Of a stretch of 64,000 bases of DNA, positions 798 through 64,000 are shown one piece after another. The notes under the pieces were generated by a model. The model made no database searches and was not told where the DNA came from. It saw only the letters and a program-made list of their open reading frames with translations. Where the stretch lies: the IMG/VR virus record IMGVR_UViG_3300017917_001798, positions 1,134 through 65,133 of that record. One strand, 5' to 3'. The first letter of the stretch is position 1. Each line of letters opens with the position of its first letter. This DNA is from a virus. Its lineage: Duplodnaviria > Caudoviricetes. The position numbers and the translations under genes are program-made.

Positions 798-2522
798 ATG
801 GCAGAAAAGATTTTATCTCCTGGCGTATTCCAAAATGAATCTGACCAATCGTTAGTTCAAAGAGGTATACAAGGTACAGCGACAGCTATAGTTGGTCCTA
901 CAGTAATGGGTCAACCATTAGTTCCTACCTATGTTACTTCTTATAGTGAGTATGTATCACAATTCGGAGAAACATTTAAAAGTGGTAGCTACTACTACGA
1001 ATACTTTACGTCACAAGCGGCAAAAGAATTCTTCCAAAACGGAGGACAAACATTATTAGTAACAAGAATTATTAGTGGATCAGCTAATGTTAGTACTTAT
1101 GCTAGCGCTACTGTACCTGCTATAATGAACGCTACTTCAGCATCATTCCAACTTGAAACAATAGCTTGGGGTGATCAAATGAACAACACTTCTAGTATGG
1201 TTAGCGGAGCATTAGCAAGCGGTAGTGGAATGAATGTTCGTTGGGAAATTACAAGTGTAAATACAGGAAGTGGTACATTTAACTTAGCAATTCGTGCTGG
1301 TAATGACAATACTGCTCAACCTAATTATATTGAATCTTGGCCTAATTTATCATTAGATCCAGCTCAACCTAACTATATTGCTCGTGTAATTGGTGATCTT
1401 AAACCAGTTTACAGATTAGATACTGATAGTGTTCCGTATATTGAATATACTGGTTCTTACGCTAATGCTTCTCAATATGTACGTGTTAAATCCGTAACAA
1501 TTCCTCAAGTAGACTCAATCGACAACAACGGTGCTTATAAAGCAACACAATACAGTGGTAGCTTACCAGCTGTAGGAAGTGGATCATACGGTGGTTCATT
1601 TGCAGGTGGTGTTGCTGCTACAACAACTGTTCAATTTATGAACGAAAATATCACAACAACCAATATTCAAGGATTTGGTGTTGATGATTATAAAGCTGCT
1701 TTCACTTTATTAAAAAATAAAGACGAATATAAATTTAACGTATTATTAGCTCCTGGTGTTACATTAAATAATGGTGCCGTTTCATCTATGATTTCTACAT
1801 GTGAAGATAGAGGAGATGCTATTGCAGCAATAGATAATGATGTTTTTGGTAAGACAGTAACAACAGCAGCAGCTAATGCAGCTGGTCAATCAAGCAACTA
1901 CGCTGGAACATATTGGCCTTGGGTTCAATTATACAGTTCAGGTTTAGGTAAAGCTATTTGGGCTCCTGCTTCAACAGTAATAGGTGGTGTTTATGCATTC
2001 AACGATCAAGTAGCAGCAAGTTGGTTCGCTCCCGCTGGTTTAAATCGTGGTGGTGTTCCTTCAGTATTAAAAGCTGAACGTAAATTATCTCAAACAGATC
2101 GTGATACTTTATATAATGCAAACGTTAACCCATTAGCTACATTCCCTGGTGAAGGTGTTGTAGTATATGGTCAGAAAACATTACAGAAGAAAGCTACAGC
2201 ATTAGATAGAATTAATGTTCGTCGTTTATTAATAGCATTAAAAGACTATATCGGTCAAGTATCTAATAACTTAGTATTTGAACAAAATACAAACGTTACT
2301 CGTAATAGATTCTTAGCTCAAGTTAATCCATACTTAGAATCAGTAGTACAACGTCAAGGATTGTATGCTTTCAAAGTAGTAATGGATGAAACAAACAATA
2401 CAGCTGATGTGATCGATAGAAACCAATTAGTAGGTCAAATATATATTCAACCAACTAAAACTGCTGAATTTATTATATTAAACTATAACATATTACCAAC
2501 TGGTGCTACATTCCCTGCATAA
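798..2522 (+). CDS. Tail sheath protein (T4 gp18-like)
   Basis: N-terminal SPGV..E.D.S; C-terminal WFAPAGLNRG, GQKTLQ, DRINVRRL, VFEQN, PTKTAEFI motifs. Confidence 0.97.
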   Translation: MAEKILSPGVFQNESDQSLVQRGIQGTATAIVGPTVMGQPLVPTYVTSYSEYVSQFGETFKSGSYYYEYFTSQAAKEFFQNGGQTLLVTRIISGSANVSTYASATVPAIMNATSASFQLETIAWGDQMNNTSSMVSGALASGSGMNVRWEITSVNTGSGTFNLAIRAGNDNTAQPNYIESWPNLSLDPAQPNYIARVIGDLKPVYRLDTDSVPYIEYTGSYANASQYVRVKSVTIPQVDSIDNNGAYKATQYSGSLPAVGSGSYGGSFAGGVAATTTVQFMNENITTTNIQGFGVDDYKAAFTLLKNKDEYKFNVLLAPGVTLNNGAVSSMISTCEDRGDAIAAIDNDVFGKTVTTAAANAAGQSSNYAGTYWPWVQLYSSGLGKAIWAPASTVIGGVYAFNDQVAASWFAPAGLNRGGVPSVLKAERKLSQTDRDTLYNANVNPLATFPGEGVVVYGQKTLQKKATALDRINVRRLLIALKDYIGQVSNNLVFEQNTNVTRNRFLAQVNPYLESVVQRQGLYAFKVVMDETNNTADVIDRNQLVGQIYIQPTKTAEFIILNYNILPTGATFPA

Positions 2523-2572
2523 GGGGATGTGGTTCCTAATATTTATTAATAGCAATTAAAAATTAAAATAAA

Positions 2573-3058
2573 ATGGCAGTATTAGATGCAAATGAAATTA
2601 TGTTTACGGCTTTTGAACCAAAAGTTCAGAATCGTTTCATAATGTATATAGATGGTATCCCAGCATACCTAATCAAAAGTGCAACAGCACCTGGATTTGA
2701 AGCTGGAGAAATCATATTAGATCACATCAACGTTTACCGTAAAGTAAAAGGTAAAGTTAGATGGAATGACATGACTTTAGGATTATACGATCCTGTAACA
2801 CCAAGCGGTGCTCAAGCAGTAATGGAATGGGCTCGTTTAGCACACGAATCAGTAACAGGCCGTGATGGTTATTCTGATTTTTACAAGAAAGATTTAACAT
2901 TAGATATATTAGGTCCTGTAGGTGATGTAGTAGGTGAATGGATTGTTAAAGGAGCTTATGTAAAAACGGCTACTTTTGGAGATTATGATTGGGCAAGTGA
3001 TGCAGCTATTAACTTAAGTGTAACAATCGCTATGGATTATTGCGTCCTCAATTTTTAG
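2573..3058 (+). CDS. Tail tube protein (T4 gp19-like)
   Basis: FEPK..NRF, K.KGK..W, LYDP, YKKD motifs; directly follows sheath. Confidence 0.93.
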   Translation: MAVLDANEIMFTAFEPKVQNRFIMYIDGIPAYLIKSATAPGFEAGEIILDHINVYRKVKGKVRWNDMTLGLYDPVTPSGAQAVMEWARLAHESVTGRDGYSDFYKKDLTLDILGPVGDVVGEWIVKGAYVKTATFGDYDWASDAAINLSVTIAMDYCVLNF

Positions 3059-3096
3059 ACTTAATTAAGAAAATAGCGATCCAAGTCGCATCTTTT

Positions 3097-3137
3097 AACC
3101 CTCTCGTATATTTATCGGTATACAAGAGGGTTTCTTT
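3097..3137 (+). promoter_or_regulatory. Hairpin (terminator-like) containing the late promoter of the endonuclease gene
   Basis: AACCCTCT-CGTATA...TATAC-A-AGAGGGTT followed by TCTTT; ATATTTAT at 3108-3115 inside it. Confidence 0.65.
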
Positions 3138-3917
3138 ATGCTTAAGAAAGATAAAATAATACAAGATAAATACAATGGTATTCATCCAACATGTCAATGT
3201 GGGTGTGGTCAACAAACTCGTTATGAAGCTAAATTAAAAGATTATTGTAAATGGATAAGTGGACACCAATCGCGTGTAGCTGGTCATTTTGGTGACCCCA
3301 AATCTAAAAAACGTGTAAATGCTATTATAAGTACCCGTAAAGCTAAGTTCGCTTCAGGTGAGTATGATCACATATTAGATAAAGTATCGCAGAATCGATC
3401 TGAAGAAACCAAACAAAAAATCAGTGAAGGTGGTACAGGTGTGTCTCGTCCTAAAGCTGATGGGTTTGGAATTGGAAGAATACATAGTCAGGCTACTAAA
3501 GATAAAATGAGTAAAACCGCTATCAAAAATATATTAAAAGATGGTAAAAATAGACGTTCTAAATTAGAATATTTTTTTGAAGGAATATTAGTGTCTTTAA
3601 ATATAGATTATACTCATTCGTATTATGTAGAAAGTATAAATAAAATATATGATTTTTACCTTCCTAAATATAATATACTGATTGAGGTAGACGGAGATTT
3701 CTGGCATTGTAATCCTCAAGAATATGATGTACCTTTATGTAAAACCCAACACATTAATATAGAAAACGACAAATTCAAATCACAATGGGCGGTAGATAAT
3801 GGCTACAAACTATTACGTTTTTGGGAAAACGACATAAATAATAACATCAAACAAGTTAAACAAATATTATTAAATGAAACAACCATCCAACAAAGAAGTA
3901 GTAAAACGTCTTTATAA
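3138..3917 (+). CDS. Free-standing homing endonuclease, DUF559/Vsr-like PD-(D/E)XK domain with NUMOD3-like repeats
   Basis: CQCGCG, SEETKQKIS and HSQATKDKMS repeats, YDF...IEVDGDFWH...GYKLLRFWE. Confidence 0.85.
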   Translation: MLKKDKIIQDKYNGIHPTCQCGCGQQTRYEAKLKDYCKWISGHQSRVAGHFGDPKSKKRVNAIISTRKAKFASGEYDHILDKVSQNRSEETKQKISEGGTGVSRPKADGFGIGRIHSQATKDKMSKTAIKNILKDGKNRRSKLEYFFEGILVSLNIDYTHSYYVESINKIYDFYLPKYNILIEVDGDFWHCNPQEYDVPLCKTQHINIENDKFKSQWAVDNGYKLLRFWENDINNNIKQVKQILLNETTIQQRSSKTSL

Positions 3918-4548
3918 TGAGTATAAAGAACAATATTTAAATGAAATATACGATACTCCATTAAAATATGATAAAGAATCTAATACAAAATATATAGTAT
4001 ATGATAAAGAAGGAAATGAATTAGCTTATTTTCTTTTTAGATTTATGTATGACCTTGATAAGTCTCCTGTAAATTATAAAAAATATAAATTAGACAGATA
4101 TTGGGATGTAAGTTGGTATTGGGTCGACAACTTACATAAAGAACACAAAAATGCTCAAAATTTTATTAGAGTTACATCAACTGCTTTTAAAATTGTAGAT
4201 GATTTTATAACATCTAGTGGTTTTCCTTTATTATTAGGATTTGGAGGTTTAACAAAACAACATGAAACAATATACTCAGATGATCGTTTTATAGAAAGAT
4301 GGAAAGTACTATTTGGGGAAAGATATAAAATAAAATATCAAAACGATAAATTATGGATTATAAACAAAACAATAACGGTAGATGAAACTAAAATATCAAA
4401 AATAGCGGAAATATATGAATTGTCTAACTCAGAAGCATATAGAAAAGAACTATTTCCAACAAAACGCGACGTTAAAGGTATATCACGTCATGACATGATT
4501 AAAGAACAAATTAAAAGAATTATATTAAAACAATTATATTTTAAATAA
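3874..4548 (+). CDS. Hypothetical protein (accessory insertion)
   Basis: 224-aa ORF with AT-rich codons between endonuclease and tail chaperone. Confidence 0.7.
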   Translation: MKQPSNKEVVKRLYNEYKEQYLNEIYDTPLKYDKESNTKYIVYDKEGNELAYFLFRFMYDLDKSPVNYKKYKLDRYWDVSWYWVDNLHKEHKNAQNFIRVTSTAFKIVDDFITSSGFPLLLGFGGLTKQHETIYSDDRFIERWKVLFGERYKIKYQNDKLWIINKTITVDETKISKIAEIYELSNSEAYRKELFPTKRDVKGISRHDMIKEQIKRIILKQLYFK

Positions 4549-4601
4549 TGTAATATTTATTGACAAATGAATCGAAAAAAATCATTTATATTCTTATCTT
4601 C

Positions 4602-4632
4602 AGGTGTCTGCTTTCGCAGGCACTTTTTTTTT
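4602..4632 (+). terminator. Intrinsic terminator
   Basis: GGTGTCTGC-TTTC-GCAGGCACT stem followed by T run. Confidence 0.85.
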
Positions 4633-4666
4633 GCATATATTTATATATACACAAATAAAATAGTTT

Positions 4667-5422
4667 ATGGCAGAATTAAAAATCCCAACAGAAACCGTTA
4701 CTTTACCTTCAAAAGGATTAATGTATCCCGAAACATCACCTCTATCTAAAGGTGAAATTGAAATGTGCTACATGACAGCAAAACATGAAGACATTCTTAC
4801 TAATGTTAACTACATTAATCAAGGCGTGGTAATTGACAAATTATTACAAGCACTAATTGTTACCCCTATCAATTATGATGATTTAGTTGTAGGAGATAAA
4901 AACGCAATAATGATTGCGGCTCGTGTTTTAGGTTATGGTAAAGAATACAACTTCAATTACATCAGTAAAGGTAGAGAATTAAAAGCTACTGTAGATTTAT
5001 CTAAATTAAAAGACAAAGAAATAGATGAATCGCTGTTTAAAAGAGGTGTAAATGAATTTACATTCAATTTACCAAACACAGACAATGTAATTACATTTAA
5101 GTTATTAACACACGGCGATGAGAAAAAAATAGATGCTGAAATAAAGGGATTACAAAAAGTTAACCCACTCCAATCAACAGATGTTACTACGCGTTTAAAA
5201 CATATGATATTATCTGTTAATGGGGATAGAGAGGTAAAATCAGTCCGTGATTTTATAGATAACAACTTCCTAGCGCCAGATGCTAGAGCATTTAGAGAAT
5301 ACTATAGTAAAATATCACCAGATATTAATCTAAAATTTATTCCAGAAGACGATAGCTATGTAGGGGAGGGCATAGATATTCCTATATCTCTTAACTTTTT
5401 TTGGCCTGACGCCGGAATATAG
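4667..5422 (+). CDS. Baseplate hub assembly / tail assembly chaperone (T4 gp26-like)
   Basis: LPSKG..Y, MTAKHEDIL, GDKNAI..AAR..GYG, C-terminal FFWP; between tube and tape measure. Confidence 0.85.
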   Translation: MAELKIPTETVTLPSKGLMYPETSPLSKGEIEMCYMTAKHEDILTNVNYINQGVVIDKLLQALIVTPINYDDLVVGDKNAIMIAARVLGYGKEYNFNYISKGRELKATVDLSKLKDKEIDESLFKRGVNEFTFNLPNTDNVITFKLLTHGDEKKIDAEIKGLQKVNPLQSTDVTTRLKHMILSVNGDREVKSVRDFIDNNFLAPDARAFREYYSKISPDINLKFIPEDDSYVGEGIDIPISLNFFWPDAGI

Positions 5423-60171: not shown

Positions 60172-61269
60172 ATGCGAATATTTTTAAGTGAAATTATAGA
60201 TGAAATTTTAGGTGTTCCTGAAGGATTATTAGATATATCTGAAGAAGTCTACAGGGGCATTGTAAGTAATTTAGAAGGAGATACAACAAATGTCACTTTA
60301 ATTCCTAAACGAATGAATATAAATGGCAATTTTAATATATCTGACTATAAGTTCAATACAGTTGAAGTAGAAATTAATGCTAATCTTAATTCTGATTATG
60401 ATATAGAATGGTTATCTATGGGTGTTTCTGGTGAAATGTCTACAACTAAACCATATAAAAGATTAAGTTATGTAAAAAATAATAAAGTATATTTAATAAT
60501 AAATTTAGTTTGTGGTTATGATAAAAAATGGAATGATGTGGCTGATTTCTTTAAAGGAAATAAAAAGAAAGAATTAATTTCTAGTATAGCCCATGAATTT
60601 AAACATAGTTACGATAATTATAAAAAAGGTTCTGATAAAGCTTCATCAATATTTAAATATGTGAGAGTATCTAGTGGGAATATTGGTTTACCTCAATTAG
60701 ATAAATTTACATTTTATATATACTATACAGACGCAATAGAAAATTTAGTTAGACCTGCAGAAGTAGCATCTTATTTAAGAAATAGCAATGTAACTAAAGC
60801 AAATTTTTTGGATATTTTGAAAGAAACTAATGTATATAAAAATTTAAAAGAAGCTCAAAATATAAGTTATGATGGTATGGTAAAAGAAATAATTAATGAT
60901 TCTAGAACGGTACCATCAATAAAAAATTTCTTTGAAAAGAAAGGAGAAAACACAGACAATCTATCAGACGAGGAAATAGTTAAAAAATTTTTACAATATC
61001 ACTTTAAACACTATAAATCAGCTTTAAAGGCAGATTATGCAAACCAAGTAATGAGATCAAATATAGCTGGTAATTTATTTTCATTTTTAAAGGTTCCCGG
61101 ACGTGAAATAGATTATAATAAGAAAAAAGCTATAGAAGATTTTAATAGAGAAGTAGAAAGATTTAGTGATAGTGATTTTGAAAAATTTTATAAATACGAA
61201 GAAAAGAAAATACATTTTGAGGCAAATAGAGCTTTAAAAAAAGTGGCAAAACTTTATGCTTATATTTAA
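60172..61269 (+). CDS. HExxH-containing protein with MRIFLSEIIDE N-terminus
   Basis: IAHEFKH...E motif; late motif at 60160. Confidence 0.7.
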   Translation: MRIFLSEIIDEILGVPEGLLDISEEVYRGIVSNLEGDTTNVTLIPKRMNINGNFNISDYKFNTVEVEINANLNSDYDIEWLSMGVSGEMSTTKPYKRLSYVKNNKVYLIINLVCGYDKKWNDVADFFKGNKKKELISSIAHEFKHSYDNYKKGSDKASSIFKYVRVSSGNIGLPQLDKFTFYIYYTDAIENLVRPAEVASYLRNSNVTKANFLDILKETNVYKNLKEAQNISYDGMVKEIINDSRTVPSIKNFFEKKGENTDNLSDEEIVKKFLQYHFKHYKSALKADYANQVMRSNIAGNLFSFLKVPGREIDYNKKKAIEDFNREVERFSDSDFEKFYKYEEKKIHFEANRALKKVAKLYAYI

Positions 61270-61472
61270 TATTATGCAAATAAATAAAGACATATTAGAC
61301 AATAATAAAGAAAATCTTGAAATAAATTTCAATTCAGAAACTAGTAAACATATTAGGAAACTATTAAATAGAATCTTTATAATTAAAAAACCTAAGTCTA
61401 AGAAAAGTTGTAAATAAATTTGATTCGGTCAAAGTTCTTTTGTATATTTAGTTTACAAATAAAATAAAAAAT

Positions 61473-61766
61473 ATGAGTTTTGAATTAGCACAAAAATTTG
61501 CAGATTACCAACTTCCTGATGCAGTTAAAGAAGCATTTAAAAAAGGATTACCAATGATTGGTTCATTGAATTTCACTAAAATGATGTTATTCGCCAATGA
61601 GGTTCAATTAACAAACGATAACATTGATTATTACATGAATATACCTCCTCGTAGAATGGAAGGTGAAACTAAAGAAGAAATGAAACTTAGAGGTAAATTT
61701 GCAAACGCTTTATACAAATATAGAGCTTATCTATACGATTATTCAGTATTTGAAAAACAAAATTAA
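61473..61766 (+). CDS. Hypothetical protein
   Basis: P.R.EGET.EE.K.R; behind promoter 61420-61450. Confidence 0.7.
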   Translation: MSFELAQKFADYQLPDAVKEAFKKGLPMIGSLNFTKMMLFANEVQLTNDNIDYYMNIPPRRMEGETKEEMKLRGKFANALYKYRAYLYDYSVFEKQN

Positions 61767-61780
61767 TAAAATTAATAATT

Positions 61781-61996
61781 ATGGGACAATATTTCCAAGT
61801 AAAAGTTCAGTTTAAATCTGAAGAAGGTAAAAAAACAAGTGTAAATTATTTAGTAGACGCTCAATCAGTAACTGAAGCTGAAGCAAGAACAGTAAAGTTT
61901 TTAGTAGATAACGATGAACAGTCTTTTGAAGTTAAAGCAGCATCCGCGTCGAACATAGTTCAAGTAATACTAGAATCAGAACCAGAGTCAGAATAA
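61781..61996 (+). CDS. DUF4494-like protein
   Basis: YLVDA.S.TEAEAR motif typical of Bacteroidota DUF4494. Confidence 0.75.
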   Translation: MGQYFQVKVQFKSEEGKKTSVNYLVDAQSVTEAEARTVKFLVDNDEQSFEVKAASASNIVQVILESEPESE

Positions 61997-62078
61997 TTTG
62001 GTTCGGGCAAAATAAAGTCGTATATTTACTTTATAAAAAATGCAGGGAATTAAAATTTACATATATTTATAGACGCAA

Positions 62079-62201
62079 ATGAAAAATCAATACCAACATA
62101 TTAGCAAATTTAACAGTCGCTCGCAAGCAGCGATTTGGCAAGTGGTATGCTTTAAAAACAAACCGCAAACAACAGGGCTAAAAGATATTGATTTAGGATA
62201 A
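62079..62201 (+). CDS. Putative attenuator leader peptide 1 (40 aa)
   Basis: MKNQYQHISKFNSRSQAAIWQVVCFKNKPQTTGLKDIDLG*, directly after ATATTTAT; contains CAGGGCT complementary to terminator 5' arm. Confidence 0.7.
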   Translation: MKNQYQHISKFNSRSQAAIWQVVCFKNKPQTTGLKDIDLG

Positions 62202-62224
62202 TAAATATAATCAAATATAAATTT

Positions 62225-62255
62225 AAGCCCTGATCTAAAAAATCAGGGCTTTTTT
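62225..62255 (+). terminator. Intrinsic terminator directly upstream of tRNA array (attenuator 1)
   Basis: AAGCCCTGAT-CTAAAAA-ATCAGGGCTT followed by T run; 3 nt before tRNA-Phe. Confidence 0.9.
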
Positions 62256-62258
62256 AAT

Positions 62259-62331
62259 GGTGCTCAAGCTAACTTGGTAGAAGCGGAAGACTGAAAATCT
62301 TCAGGACTCGGGTCGGAACCGAGGTGCACCA
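62259..62331 (+). tRNA. tRNA-Phe(GAA)
   Basis: Cloverleaf; anticodon arm GAAGA-CTGAAAA-TCTTC; atypical T loop GTCGGAA. Confidence 0.85.
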
Positions 62332-62332
62332 C

Positions 62333-62488
62333 ATGACAAAAAAACAAATAACCGATCAGATAAATGCTATTAGAAAAGTAGTAGCAGAGATTGGAAACGA
62401 TAAAAATAAAGCAAACCAATTCTTGTTAGATGCAGGAATTATAAAAAAGAAAAAATATGTACATACCAACAGATTTAGCAGTAATTGA
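62333..62488 (+). CDS. Small ORF within tRNA array (51 aa)
   Basis: MTKKQITDQINAIRKVV...FLLDAGII...*. Confidence 0.45.
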   Translation: MTKKQITDQINAIRKVVAEIGNDKNKANQFLLDAGIIKKKKYVHTNRFSSN

Positions 62489-62596
62489 TGTTTATTATAA
62501 AAAAGGTCATCCCTTTTTGAGATGTCTAAAATATAAACGTATTATGCGAAAACGAAAACAGAAGTAAACTTCCTCTTGAGTGAGAGGGAGTAATAA

Positions 62597-62670
62597 TCCC
62601 TTGTAGCTCAATTGGCTAGAGTAACCGGCTTTTACCCGGTGGGTTGTAGGTTCGAATCCTACCGGGGGAA
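62597..62670 (+). tRNA. tRNA-Lys(UUU)
   Basis: ACCGG-CTTTTAC-CCGGT; GTAGG-TTCGAAT-CCTAC. Confidence 0.95.
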
Positions 62671-62682
62671 CAAAAGTAAAAT

Positions 62683-62753
62683 ACAGGTGTGGTGAAACGG
62701 TATCATTCTGGTCTCCAAAACCATCGTTCGAGGTTCGAATCCTCGCATCTGTG
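62683..62753 (+). tRNA. tRNA-Trp(CCA)
   Basis: Loop CTCCAAA; CGAGG-TTCGAAT-CCTCG. Confidence 0.92.
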
Positions 62754-62767
62754 CAGAACGCTCTTAT

Positions 62768-62840
62768 AGTTCCTTAGCTCAGAGGCAGCAGCGCTTGGCT
62801 TACATCCAAGAGGACGAGATTTCAAAATTCTCAGGAACTA
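62768..62840 (+). tRNA. tRNA-Val(UAC)
   Basis: AGTTCCT/AGGAACT; CTTGG-CTTACAT-CCAAG. Confidence 0.88.
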
Positions 62841-62847
62841 CATATAT

Positions 62848-62919
62848 TGTCCTCTGGTGTAACGGTCAGCACAAGTGGTTTTGGTCCACTTAGTCGGGGT
62901 TCGAATCCCTGGAGGACAT
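62848..62919 (+). tRNA. tRNA-Gln(UUG)
   Basis: TGTCCTC/GAGGACA; AGTGG-TTTTGGT-CCACT. Confidence 0.95.
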
Positions 62920-62925
62920 CAATAA

Positions 62926-63011
62926 GGAAGGTTGGCAGAGTTGGTCGATTGCACTAGTCTTGAAAACTAGAAGCTGTAACAGGTTCATGAGTTCGAATCT
63001 CATACCTTCCT
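62926..63011 (+). tRNA. tRNA-Ser(UGA)
   Basis: CTAGT-CTTGAAA-ACTAG; long variable arm. Confidence 0.95.
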
Positions 63012-63017
63012 CAGTAT

Positions 63018-63089
63018 GGTGTTTGAAGCATTAAGGTGATGCACTGGTTTGTGAAGCCAGGGAAGACGGTTCGATACCGTCCTTATACC
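63018..63089 (+). tRNA. tRNA-His(GUG)
   Basis: CTGGT-TTGTGAA-GCCAG; G-1 and C73; U-U mismatches in acceptor stem. Confidence 0.85.
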
Positions 63090-63090
63090 C

Positions 63091-63198
63091 AAAAGATTTA
63101 TCTTAGGCGGTGAAACCGTGTGATGGTCGATGAATGAAAGTAATGCACTTATGACCGTGGCCCGTTAGGGGATAAAATATTCATCTGATAAATCTTTT
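63091..63198 (+). ncRNA. Unidentified structured RNA between tRNA-His and tRNA-Ser
   Basis: 12-bp closing stem AAAAGATTTATC/GATAAATCTTTT with internal hairpins and potential pseudoknot. Confidence 0.65.
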
Positions 63199-63203
63199 AA
63201 TTT

Positions 63204-63289
63204 GGAGAGTAAAACGATAAGGTTGTCGTCACCGCCTGCTAAGCGTGTGGTACCCTAAAAAGGTATTTGCTTCGATGCAATGCTCTCCG
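63204..63289 (+). tRNA. tRNA-Ser(GCU)
   Basis: GGAGAGT/GCTCTCC; loop CTGCTAA; long variable arm. Confidence 0.85.
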
Positions 63290-63291
63290 CA

Positions 63292-63347
63292 GACCCAGTA
63301 CGACGCACATCTTGGCCCGAGTGTGATGGAAAGCTGGTATCGGGCCC
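63292..63347 (+). ncRNA. Small GC-rich pseudoknot-capable element between tRNA-Ser and tRNA-Ile
   Basis: CCAGT/GCTGG, CGCAC/GTGTG, GGCCCGA/TCGGGCC pairings. Confidence 0.45.
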
Positions 63348-63350
63348 TAT

Positions 63351-63423
63351 GCTTATGTAACTCAATGGTGAGAGTACCGACCTGATACGTCGGAGGTTAC
63401 AAGTTCGAGTCTTGTCATAAGCA
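63351..63423 (+). tRNA. tRNA-Ile(GAU)
   Basis: CCGAC-CTGATAC-GTCGG; GCTTATG/CATAAGC. Confidence 0.95.
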
Positions 63424-63483
63424 CTTTTATGGTTTTTGATATCTTTATATATTTATAGACACAAAACAATAATAAAACATTCA

Positions 63484-63564
63484 ATGCAACTAACGTATAC
63501 ATACAATACCTTGATAAGCCTAAATTTAGGTGAGGGAAGAGATATGGATACCTCAGGAGCATAA
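63484..63564 (+). CDS. Putative attenuator leader peptide 2 (26 aa)
   Basis: MQLTYTYNTLISLNLGEGRDMDTSGA*, after ATATTTATAGAC; ends in TCAGGAGC complementary to terminator 5' arm. Confidence 0.7.
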   Translation: MQLTYTYNTLISLNLGEGRDMDTSGA

Positions 63565-63592
63565 TGAAAAATAAAATATTATTTTAAAATTT

Positions 63593-63628
63593 AAGCTCCT
63601 GAAATAAAAAATCAGGAGCTTTTGTTTT
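63593..63628 (+). terminator. Intrinsic terminator upstream of second tRNA group (attenuator 2)
   Basis: AAGCTCCTGA-AATAAAAAA-TCAGGAGCTT followed by TTGTTTT. Confidence 0.88.
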
Positions 63629-63668
63629 GGGCAAAATAAAATCGTACATTTAATGTATACGAGAATAA

Positions 63669-63740
63669 GGGTTGGTAGCTCAGAGGCAGAGCGGTTGTTT
63701 GTTAAACAACGGGTCAGGATTTCGAAATTCCTCCTTCCCT
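63669..63740 (+). tRNA. tRNA-Asn(GUU)
   Basis: GTTGT-TTGTTAA-ACAAC; U-U mismatches in acceptor stem. Confidence 0.87.
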
Positions 63741-63748
63741 CATAACAA

Positions 63749-63828
63749 GCCGACGTCGCATAGTGGCAATTGCTCGTGACTGTAAATCACGTCCTTCGGG
63801 TTCAGAGGTTCGAGTCCTCTCGGCGGCA
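63749..63828 (+). tRNA. tRNA-Tyr(GUA)
   Basis: CGTGA-CTGTAAA-TCACG; variable arm CCTTCGGG; AGAGG-TTCGAGT-CCTCT. Confidence 0.95.
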
Positions 63829-64000
63829 CAGAAAAAATAAGTTGATTGGGCAAAGTAAAAATTGTATCTTCAATTTATAAAAGAATAAAAAGATCTTTGA
63901 AATGGTTAATATGATGGGGAAGAAGTTTAATAAACTCGCTGTTTAAAATATTCTTCGGTAACGATAGTCAATCTAACAGTTACATCGGTAAAACATCTAA

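What the first reader, a model, noticed from the sequence alone, without database searches (positions are those of the whole stretch)
63447..63828. Second copy of the attenuator; the two leaders partition the genetic code
Seen: same ATATATTTATAGAC(A/G)CAAA upstream motif, a 26-codon ORF (63484-63564) whose last codons contain TCAGGAGC (63553-63560), and a terminator AAGCTCCTGA...TCAGGAGCTT. The stem sequence differs from module 1 but the three-arm logic is identical, which acts as internal covariation. Leader 2 is made of L, T, G, D, E, M, Y, N, with varied synonymous codons (CTA/TTG/TTA; ACG/ACA/ACC; TAT/TAC; ATA; AGA), and lacks K, F, W, V, H, C, P. The two leaders together cover all 20 amino acids. 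The next tRNAs are Asn and Tyr, both sampled twice. Inference and prediction: tRNAs beyond the window end should include Leu, Thr, Gly, Asp, Glu, Met, Arg(UCU) and Ile2(CAU). Caveat: a host-type promoter (63622-63652) overlaps the terminator tail, so Asn/Tyr may also be transcribed independently.
Basis: partly seen in the sequence, partly recalled or inferred. Interest (0 to 1): 0.9.

Follow-up and report, generated by a model that had tools for sequence, protein, structure and literature searches.

The report
Second leader-peptide switch inside phage tRNA array
A tiny reading frame wired to a stop/go transcription switch sits in the middle of this lake phage's row of tRNA genes and is spelled mostly in codons read by the tRNAs expected behind it, so the phage probably tops up each half of its tRNA set separately when ribosomes decode slowly.

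Summary
Module 2 lies between tRNA-Ile and tRNA-Asn. It has a promoter-like box, a 26-codon ORF, an 8-nt copy of the terminator's 3' arm ending 1 nt before the stop, and a 10-bp terminator.

The three-arm design is not chance. In IMG/VR phage loci, 16 of 54 tRNA-preceding terminators carry such a third arm of 7 nt or more, against 0.83 in shuffles. The stem sequences differ between lineages.

Leaders are enriched in residues of the tRNAs behind them: 206 of 395 against 135 expected, and only in the ORF frame. Two other two-module arrays (L208, L222) show each leader favouring its own sub-array.

For this window the distal tRNAs beyond Asn and Tyr cannot be seen, because the contig ends at 64000. 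Synteny in relatives gives the predicted set, and 18 of 25 leader-2 codons match it.

Limits:
- "Partition" is a bias, not a strict split.
- Module 2 is missing at this junction in 7 of 10 related arrays.
- A promoter-like element follows its terminator.
- No expression data exist.

This scan has reported the same kind of element before, on module 1 of this window and on other genomes. Six paper searches found no published account.

The parts
63351..63424 (+). tRNA-Ile(GAT), the last gene of the proximal sub-array
   Evidence: ARAGORN; Rfam 73.6 bits
63447..63465 (+). A/T-rich box shared with module 1. I infer it to be a Bacteroidota-type -7 promoter element or a 5'-leader signal.
   Evidence: Two exact copies in the window. 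The same box stands before the leaders of relatives. In L222 it lies 20 nt after a TTTG.
63484..63564 (+). Leader ORF of 26 codons plus TAA
   Evidence: In variants from runs X1, X2 and X8 every listed change inside the ORF is a substitution that adds no stop, and in X1 TAA becomes TAG; that table is truncated. The ORF alone is not significant.
63553..63560 (+). Third arm: a copy of the terminator's 3' arm that can pair with 63595-63602 to form the antiterminator
   Evidence: The nascent RNA up to 63611 folds into this helix as its minimum-energy structure.
63568..63585 (+). Inner A/U hairpin that shortens the antiterminator loop
   Evidence: ViennaRNA folds. Module 1 has an equivalent hairpin.
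63593..63628 (+). Intrinsic terminator: 10-bp stem, 9-nt loop, T tract
   Evidence: Hairpin energy about -14.7 kcal/mol.
63622..63652 (+). Promoter-like 31-nt element (TTG, 20 nt, TA..TTTA) that starts at the terminator tail
   Evidence: Four copies, all between 61420 and 63872. Similar elements occur inside the arrays of relatives.
63669..63741 (+). tRNA-Asn(GTT), the first gene behind module 2
63749..63829 (+). tRNA-Tyr(GTA)
62061..62255 (+). Module 1 (box, 40-codon leader 62079-62201, third arm 62173-62179, terminator 62225-62251), given for comparison

Best explanation
Module 2 is a second leader-peptide transcription attenuator placed inside the phage's tRNA array. Transcripts come from the proximal array or from the module's own promoter-like box, and they carry a 26-codon leader.

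If ribosomes read the leader quickly, a ribosome covers the third arm (63553-63560), which ends 1 nt before the stop, just as RNA polymerase makes the terminator. The 10-bp hairpin then forms and transcription stops at 63621-63628.

If decoding is slow, or no ribosome loads, the third arm is free. It pairs with the 5' arm as soon as that arm emerges, helped by the inner hairpin. This blocks nucleation of the terminator, and polymerase runs on into tRNA-Asn, tRNA-Tyr and the distal tRNA genes.

The leader is biased towards codons read by the distal tRNA set, so the distal half of the array is probably tuned to shortage of its own tRNAs, while module 1 does the same for the proximal half.

Shown: the anatomy, the alternative pairing, its recurrence with different stems, and the composition bias across phages. 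Inferred: translation of the leader, the direction of the switch, the identity of the distal tRNAs in this phage, and the share of Asn/Tyr transcription that passes through the switch rather than starting at 63622-63652.
For: 1. Anatomy at the stated coordinates.

2. The two folds are close in energy: -16.9 kcal/mol with the antiterminator enforced and -18.3 with the terminator enforced. The nascent RNA up to 63611 adopts the antiterminator.

3. A third arm of 7 nt or more occurs in 16 of 54 unique tRNA-preceding terminators, against a mean of 0.83 (maximum 4) in 200 shuffles. Counting redundant loci, terminators followed by a tRNA carry one in 21 of 65 cases, and other terminators in 21 of 315. 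Stems differ completely between lineages while the third arm follows them. In L036 and L040 the arm lies in a different reading frame from the P-G frame of relatives, which points to a constraint on the RNA.

4. Geometry: in 23 modules the stop codon lies 17-45 nt before the 5' arm, mostly 19-28 nt. Module 2 has 28.

5. In 14 modules with partial arrays, 206 of 395 leader residues belong to the downstream tRNA set, against 135.0 expected. The other two frames give 228 of 683. Permuting the sets reached the observed value in 0 of 20000 trials. At codon level the figure is 177 of 395 against 106.4 expected. Without L223 and the window it is 158 of 344 against 97.5. Synonymous choice is 61 of 91 against 47.3.

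6. Two-module arrays: L208 gives 15 and 4 against 3 and 23 (p 7e-6). L222 gives 19 and 8 against 3 and 11 (p 0.007). The window gives 20 and 12 against 2 and 18 (p 1.9e-4), with the distal set taken from synteny.

7. In L223 and L208 a second module stands 5 nt before tRNA-Asn. Its third arm also ends 1 nt before the stop, and its leader has a similar C-terminal stretch.

8. Contigs of three runs from three studies span module 2 at roughly 90% identity. The ORF stays open, TAA becomes TAG in one, two synonymous changes lie just before the arm, and no listed change falls in the three arms (that table is truncated).
Against: - Only Asn and Tyr are seen behind module 2. Against that observed set the leader matches 4 of 25 codons, with 12% expected.
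- The distal set is inferred from relatives, because the contig ends at 64000.
- A promoter-like element (63622-63652) lies between the terminator and tRNA-Asn, so these tRNAs may be made regardless of the switch.
- Module 2 is absent at the Ile-Asn junction in 7 of 10 same-clade arrays, where the gap is 4-9 nt. It is therefore dispensable.
- An ORF of this length in this place arises in 9.2% of shuffles.
- The leader has no tandem runs of one codon, unlike classical attenuators, so its sensitivity is uncertain.
- No upstream segment that would restore termination without translation was found.
- Peptide similarity to the L223 leader is weak (E 0.056 for a single comparison). DNA similarity to the window's own module 1 is also weak (E 0.22).
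- The class statistics rest on my own heuristic module finder and on loci fetched through tRNA patterns, which are not a random sample.
Confidence: 0.6

Rival explanations
1. Module 2 is simply the end of the proximal tRNA operon. A plain terminator is followed by a fresh promoter for Asn, Tyr and the rest. The upstream ORF and third arm would be a decaying relic of a duplicated module 1 with no regulatory role today.
For: A promoter-like element starts at the terminator tail. Most relatives do without module 2. The ORF alone is not significant. Relative L043 has only a hairpin and a promoter-like element at this junction.
Against: The 8-nt third arm covers the loop-proximal part of the 5' arm, and the two folds are near-isoenergetic. 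Variants in three studies keep the ORF, a stop codon and, as far as listed, all three arms. The stop-to-terminator spacing fits the class. Leader 2 avoids proximal-set codons, with 2 of 25 against 29% expected.
Confidence: 0.2
2. The switch is real but works through RNA alone. The third arm and terminator respond to a bound factor, such as a tRNA, a protein or a small molecule, rather than to a ribosome, and the ORF is incidental.
For: Alternative pairing needs no ORF in principle. Nothing here shows translation. The host group lacks Shine-Dalgarno signals that could be scored (recalled, not tested here).
Against: The match between leader composition and downstream tRNAs holds only in the ORF frame: 52% against 33% in the other frames. 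Synonymous choice leans to the downstream anticodons. Stop codons sit at a steady distance from the terminator. No Rfam riboswitch or T-box match was found in 61000-64000 at E up to 1.
Confidence: 0.1
3. The ORF encodes a small functional protein with its own terminator, and its position in the array is incidental.
For: Leaders of the module-1 family are conserved as peptides, with synonymous changes in the G-Y-C-F stretch.
Against: Leader 2 shows no convincing peptide similarity to that family. In close variants, five non-synonymous changes fall in five adjacent codons. A search with a module-1 leader found only 2 proteins.
Confidence: 0.05

Closest known systems
Leader-peptide transcription attenuators of amino-acid operons (trp, his, leu, phe; the multivalent thr and ilvGMEDA leaders). 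Textbook knowledge, recalled.
   Same: A short ORF lies before an intrinsic terminator. An alternative helix shares one strand with the terminator. Ribosome position decides which helix forms. Leader codons reflect what the operon supplies. Like ilvGMEDA and thr, several residues are sampled.
   Different: The regulated genes are tRNAs, not biosynthetic enzymes. There are no tandem runs of one codon, and about ten residue types are sampled. No 1:2-type anti-antiterminator was found. The element sits inside a gene array and is followed by a promoter-like element. It is phage-borne, with a probable Bacteroidota host. No Rfam leader family matches module 2.
Module 1 of the same window (62061-62255) and its family upstream of tRNA-Phe in related IMG/VR phages
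   Same: It has the same 19-nt box, three arms, inner hairpin and stop-to-terminator spacing. nhmmer aligns module 2 to the L036 homologue over its full length.
   Different: The module-2 leader is shorter (26 codons against 40-49) and lacks the conserved peptide of the family. Its third arm abuts the stop codon instead of ending 16-21 nt before it. It is followed by a promoter-like element rather than directly by a tRNA.
Second modules before tRNA-Asn in L223/L208 and L222 (unnamed IMG/VR phages)
   Same: They take the same position ahead of tRNA-Asn. In L223 and L208 the third arm also ends 1 nt before the stop and the leader has a similar E-G-x-x-M-D-T stretch. The leaders are rich in residues of the distal tRNAs.
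   Different: The stems and tRNA orders differ, and there is no promoter-like element after the terminator (gap of 5-6 nt). In L222 the third arm is only about 5 nt including a G-U pair, and my finder did not call it.
The trn L-array of Anabaena sp. PCC 7120, induced under translational stress (PMC8421152, PMC10272220; passages read)
   Same: An accessory tRNA array is switched on when translation is impaired.
   Different: [quoted passage not shown] The words attenuat-, leader and terminator do not occur in the main text of PMC8421152, and attenuat-, leader peptide and terminator do not occur in that of PMC10272220.
T-box riboswitches (recalled)
   Same: A terminator/antiterminator choice is tied to tRNA status.
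   Different: T-boxes bind uncharged tRNA directly and need no ORF. There is no T-box match here, and the frame-specific composition signal points to translation.

Membership tests
Leader-peptide transcription attenuator (trp/his/thr type) | Short ORF immediately upstream of the regulated genes | tested here: met
   26-codon ATG ORF at 63484-63564. Its presence alone is not significant (9.2% of shuffles).
Leader-peptide transcription attenuator (trp/his/thr type) | Intrinsic terminator between the leader and the regulated genes | tested here: met
   10-bp stem with a T tract at 63593-63628, -14.7 kcal/mol.
Leader-peptide transcription attenuator (trp/his/thr type) | Antiterminator helix that excludes the terminator and overlaps the region a translating ribosome covers | tested here: met
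   63553-63560 pairs with 63595-63602. The nascent-RNA minimum-energy fold adopts this helix, and the arm ends 1 nt before the stop.
Leader-peptide transcription attenuator (trp/his/thr type) | Leader enriched in codons tied to the product of the regulated genes | tested here: inconclusive
   Against the observed Asn and Tyr: 4 of 25 (expected 12%). Against the distal set inferred from synteny: 18 of 25 codons (expected 45%, p 0.006). The class-level enrichment is strong.
Leader-peptide transcription attenuator (trp/his/thr type) | Upstream segment (1:2 type) that restores termination when the leader is not translated | tested here: not met
   No such pairing appears in the folds of 63462-63628. 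Only a weak local hairpin lies inside the ORF.
Leader-peptide transcription attenuator (trp/his/thr type) | Read-through that responds to translation of the leader | not testable with these tools
   This needs reporter assays or 3'-end mapping.
Phage tRNA-array leader modules (class defined here and in earlier notes of this scan; not in print by my searches) | Terminator within 90 nt of a tRNA gene, with an upstream copy of its 3' arm | tested here: met
   The gap to tRNA-Asn is 47 nt, and the third arm is 8 nt long, 32 nt before the 5' arm.
Phage tRNA-array leader modules (class defined here and in earlier notes of this scan; not in print by my searches) | Stop codon of a small ORF about 17-31 nt before the 5' arm | tested here: met
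   28 nt in module 2. 21 of the 23 modules lie within 17-31 nt.
Rfam leader and riboswitch families (Thr_leader, T-box and others) | Score at or above the family's gathering threshold | tested here: not met
   Nothing matches module 2 at E up to 1. Module 1 scores 23.6 bits against the 55 needed for Thr_leader.

The most novel reading that the evidence does not exclude
Phages with large tRNA arrays split them into sub-operons that are attenuated separately. Each sub-operon sits behind a leader peptide written in the codons of its own tRNAs. The phage would then measure decoding speed codon set by codon set and replenish only the tRNAs that run short, for instance after codon-usage mismatch with the host or after host nucleases cut particular tRNAs. 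Module 2 of this window would be the gauge for the Asn/Tyr-led distal set.
Probability: 0.45. Interest if true: 0.9.

Novelty: new variant of a known kind. Interest (0 to 1): 0.75.

Why it matters
Leader-peptide attenuation is a classic mechanism, but it is known for amino-acid and related operons. Six full-text searches found no account of it controlling tRNA genes. If it works as inferred, phage tRNA genes are not passive cargo. They would be under feedback from the very process they serve, with separate gauges for separate codon sets.

That would bear on why phages carry tRNAs at all, whether for codon-usage matching or for replacing tRNAs lost to host defences. It would also offer compact, codon-specific sensors of translation speed, and explain why terminators sit directly in front of tRNA genes in many uncultured phages.

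Two-module arrays such as this one are the sharpest natural test, because the two leaders serve as each other's control.

Tried and rejected
- **Downstream sequence.** The window ends at the contig end. A metagenome scan with a stretch of leader 2 found nothing. The search for related loci with the 365-aa neighbour found no relative. blastn of the window's last 379 nt against all fetched loci found only L063 for the final 95 nt, in a different array position.
- **Phage collection.** Distant blastn of 61900-64000 matched only tRNA pieces. The nearest isolate by one protein is Flavobacterium phage immuto at 27% identity, and it has only 3 tRNA matches.
- **Proteins.** The PHROGs call failed on a wrong coordinate and was not repeated. 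A search with a module-1 leader gave 2 proteins. Aligning leader 2 with 11 module-1 leaders showed no convincing similarity. BLASTP against the L223 leader gave E 0.056.
- **RNA.** No Rfam family matches module 2.
- **Expression.** No RNA holder was listed for this stretch. The one run guessed to be RNA covered only tRNA-like parts.
- **Promoters.** The sigma-70 scan found 10 sites against 9.3 in shuffles, which is uninformative for this host type. One degenerate promoter pattern was too rigid and found 1 copy; a looser regex found 4.
- **Terminator-stem scan.** A scan of viral contigs gave mostly unrelated terminators, plus L228 and L070.
- **Formal pair counting.** I aligned ten modules but did not run the count of structure pairs. 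An extra base in all three arms of two rows, and one misaligned row, put the paired columns out of register. The shuffle test stands in its place.
- **Rejected idea.** A pyrBI-like logic, in which the ribosome itself blocks the terminator, does not fit. The stop lies 19-28 nt before the 5' arm in most modules, beyond a ribosome's reach (footprint size recalled).

Full report
**What is there**

The window is the 3' part of a 65,133-nt IMG/VR viral contig estimated to be 39% complete, and base 64000 is the contig's end. Its last 2 kb hold a tRNA array:
- tRNA-Phe (Rfam only, 62259-62331), Lys, Trp, Val, Gln, Ser, His;
- a 260-nt stretch without a called tRNA;
- Ile (63351-63424);
- the finding;
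- Asn (63669-63741) and Tyr (63749-63829).

- the 19-nt box, 63447-63465, which has exactly two copies in the window;
- a 26-codon ATG ORF, 63484-63564;
- an 8-nt copy of the terminator's 3' arm, 63553-63560, ending 1 nt before the stop;
- a 10-bp terminator with a 9-nt loop and a T tract, 63593-63628;
- a promoter-like element, 63622-63652, which begins at the terminator's tail.

That promoter-like element has the form TTG, 20 nt, TA..TTTA. It is one of four 31-nt copies, all on the + strand between 61420 and 63872. The shape fits what I recall of Bacteroidota -33/-7 promoters. The nearest cultured relative by one protein is a Flavobacterium phage at 27% identity, so a Bacteroidota host is likely but not shown.

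**Is the three-arm design more than chance?**

Folding supports a switch. The nascent RNA up to 63611 takes the third-arm/5'-arm helix as its minimum-energy structure. This helix is closed by an inner A/U hairpin at 63568-63585. With the whole element present, the best fold with the antiterminator enforced is -16.9 kcal/mol and the best with the terminator enforced is -18.3. The third arm covers the eight loop-proximal bases of the 5' arm, which is where a terminator hairpin must nucleate. Module 1 behaves the same way.

Comparative evidence is stronger. Using tRNA-derived patterns I fetched about 280 loci from IMG/VR and scanned them with my own script.
- Of 54 unique terminators followed within 90 nt by a tRNA, 16 have an upstream exact copy of 7 nt or more of their 3' arm. 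Shuffles of the upstream 80 nt give a mean of 0.83 and a maximum of 4.
- Counting redundant loci, terminators not followed by a tRNA have such a copy in 21 of 315 cases, against 21 of 65 for those followed by one.
- The stems are unrelated between lineages, and the third arm changes with them.
- Within the module-1 family, L036 and L040 carry the arm in a different reading frame from their relatives. This argues for a constraint on the RNA rather than on a peptide.

**Is module 2 a copy of module 1?**

Yes, but a distant one.
- nhmmer aligns module 2 over its full length (15-200 of 244) to the module-1 homologue of L036, which has the same stem, at E 8e-4 in 1.4 Mb. It aligns to the window's own module 1 at E 0.22.
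- The leader peptide shows no convincing similarity to the conserved module-1 peptide family.
- The geometry differs in one respect. In module-1-type leaders the arm ends 16-21 nt before the stop. In module 2 it ends 1 nt before the stop.
- In both kinds the stop lies at a steady distance from the 5' arm: 28 nt in module 2, and 17-45 nt, mostly 19-28, in 23 modules.

**Is module 2 conserved?**

At this junction it is usually absent. Ten distinct same-clade arrays cover the Ile-Asn junction:
- seven have a gap of 4-9 nt (L017, L018/L032, L020, L027/L041, L030, L070, L063);
- L043 has a hairpin and a promoter-like element;
- L039 has a 50-codon ORF;
- L038/L222 has a box, a 21-codon ORF and a terminator 6 nt before tRNA-Asn, though with only a weak third arm.

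In another lineage (L223, L208) a second module stands 5 nt before tRNA-Asn. Its third arm ends 1 nt before the stop, and its leader shares E-G-x-x-M-D-T with leader 2 at the same distance from the stop. BLASTP gives E 0.056 for that one comparison, which is weak.

Close variants of the window phage do keep module 2. Contigs from three runs of three studies span 63348-63788 at roughly 90% identity.
- The listed changes leave the ORF open.
- The stop changes from TAA to TAG in one run.
- Changes include three synonymous ones, two of them just before the arm.
- Five non-synonymous changes fall in codons 9-13.
- None of the listed changes lies in the three arms.

That table shows only the best-supported differences, so the last point is not proof.

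**Do leaders mirror their tRNAs?**

I took every module my finder called: a terminator, a tRNA within 90 nt, a third arm of 6 nt or more, and the longest ATG ORF of 15 codons or more ending between the arm and the terminator. This gave 23 unique modules. I kept the 14 whose downstream tRNAs, up to the next module or the locus end, cover 2-12 residue types.
- Residue level: 206 of 395 leader residues are in the downstream set, against 135.0 expected from each locus's long ORFs (z about 8). The other two frames of the same DNA give 228 of 683. Permuting the sets among the leaders reached the observed value in 0 of 20000 trials.
- Codon level, with simple wobble rules: 177 of 395 against 106.4 expected. 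Without L223 (a homologue of L208) and without the window it is 158 of 344 against 97.5.
- Synonymous choice: among residues that have both decodable and non-decodable codons, 61 of 91 leader codons are decodable, against 47.3 expected.

Single modules vary. L033, L178, L223 and both L208 modules are individually strong. L036, L066, L200 and the window's module 2 (with its truncated set) are not.

These figures rest on a heuristic finder, on ARAGORN calls that miss some tRNAs, on arrays cut by locus ends, and on loci fetched by tRNA patterns.

**The partition claim**

Three arrays carry two modules. Counting codons read only by the proximal set or only by the distal set:
- L208 gives 15 and 4 for leader 1 against 3 and 23 for leader 2 (Fisher p 7e-6);
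- L222 gives 19 and 8 against 3 and 11 (p 0.007);
- the window gives 20 and 12 against 2 and 18 (p 1.9e-4).

For the window, the distal set is taken from the order conserved in relatives: Asn, Tyr, Glu, Asp, Met/Met or Ile(TAT), Thr, Gly, Arg(TCT), Leu, Leu. Against that set leader 2 matches 18 of 25 codons, with 45% expected (p 0.006). It matches only 2 of 25 codons of the proximal set, with 29% expected. Against the two tRNAs actually seen it matches 4 of 25, with 12% expected.

It is not a clean partition: leader 1 has 19 of the 20 residue types and shares 12 with leader 2. Behind Tyr the window shows only another promoter-like element and the start of an odd tRNA-like gene.

**Mechanism**

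The most likely reading is translation-coupled attenuation. A ribosome that keeps pace with RNA polymerase covers the third arm as the terminator is made, and transcription ends. A ribosome delayed on leader codons, or none at all, leaves the arm free to capture the 5' arm, and polymerase continues into the distal tRNA genes.

The frame-specific composition, the lean in synonymous choice and the steady stop-to-terminator spacing all point to a ribosome as the sensor, not a bound factor.

Open points:
- there is no anti-antiterminator;
- no codon is repeated in tandem;
- the promoter-like element after the terminator could make Asn and Tyr independent of the switch, leaving module 2 mainly as a brake on read-through from the proximal operon.

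**Known or new?**

Six full-text searches listed nothing on leader-peptide attenuation of tRNA genes, in phages or in cells. I saw only the listings and abstract openings, except for two papers.

The nearest published case is the Anabaena trn array, which is induced by translational stress through promoter repeats and the repressor TrcR. I read passages of PMC8421152 and PMC10272220. The main text of PMC8421152 does not use the words attenuat-, leader or terminator, and that of PMC10272220 does not use attenuat-, leader peptide or terminator.

Earlier notes of this scan report the same kind of element on module 1 of this window and on other genomes. I treated those as leads and ran my own tests.

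I class the finding as a new variant of a known kind: classical attenuation logic applied to tRNA genes, here in a second, internally placed copy.

Noticed in passing
window 63913-64000 (runs off the contig end); L063 7120-7270: This is the start of an odd tRNA-like gene behind the fourth promoter-like element. Its homologue in L063 is 94% identical over 95 nt and has acceptor-like ends about 130 nt apart. It has a tRNA core at 28 bits (gathering score 29), with what reads as a GAA anticodon in an 8-nt loop. A GIY-YIG-like ORF follows it in L063.
   Followed up: partly
window 62259-62331: Rfam finds this tRNA-Phe(GAA) at 42.4 bits, but ARAGORN misses it here and in several relatives. It starts a few bases after module 1's terminator.
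   Followed up: partly
window 62683-62841 compared with relatives: The window's array lacks Arg(ACG), Cys, Pro and Ala, which lie between Trp and Val in relatives. Leader 1 still carries CGC, TGC, CCG, GCA and GCG codons.
   Followed up: no
window 61420-61450, 61998-62028, 63622-63652, 63842-63872: Four copies of a 31-nt promoter-like element share a conserved inner G-G-C-A-A-A stretch. All lie in the last 2.6 kb of the window. Similar elements sit inside the tRNA arrays of relatives.
   Followed up: partly
window 63091-63350: No tRNA is called in this 260-nt gap. By eye, 63199-63290 looks like a degenerate tRNA-Ser(GCT), which is where G001 has that gene. Variants in three runs lack 63291-63347. 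Rfam gives nothing for 63091-63198.
   Followed up: no
leaders in L017, L018, L020, L084, L113/L282, L209 and others: Leaders of several phage lineages begin with a similar M-K-T-x-x-L-H stretch, whatever tRNAs follow.
   Followed up: no
L283 (G009) 1408-4872: Here one leader is followed by many copies of tRNA-Asn, Tyr and Asp, the queuosine-type anticodons. Further on there is a tRNA with a CTA anticodon.
   Followed up: no
L017 5445-5868; L084 1028-1383; L026: Relatives encode a tmRNA next to the tRNA array.
   Followed up: no
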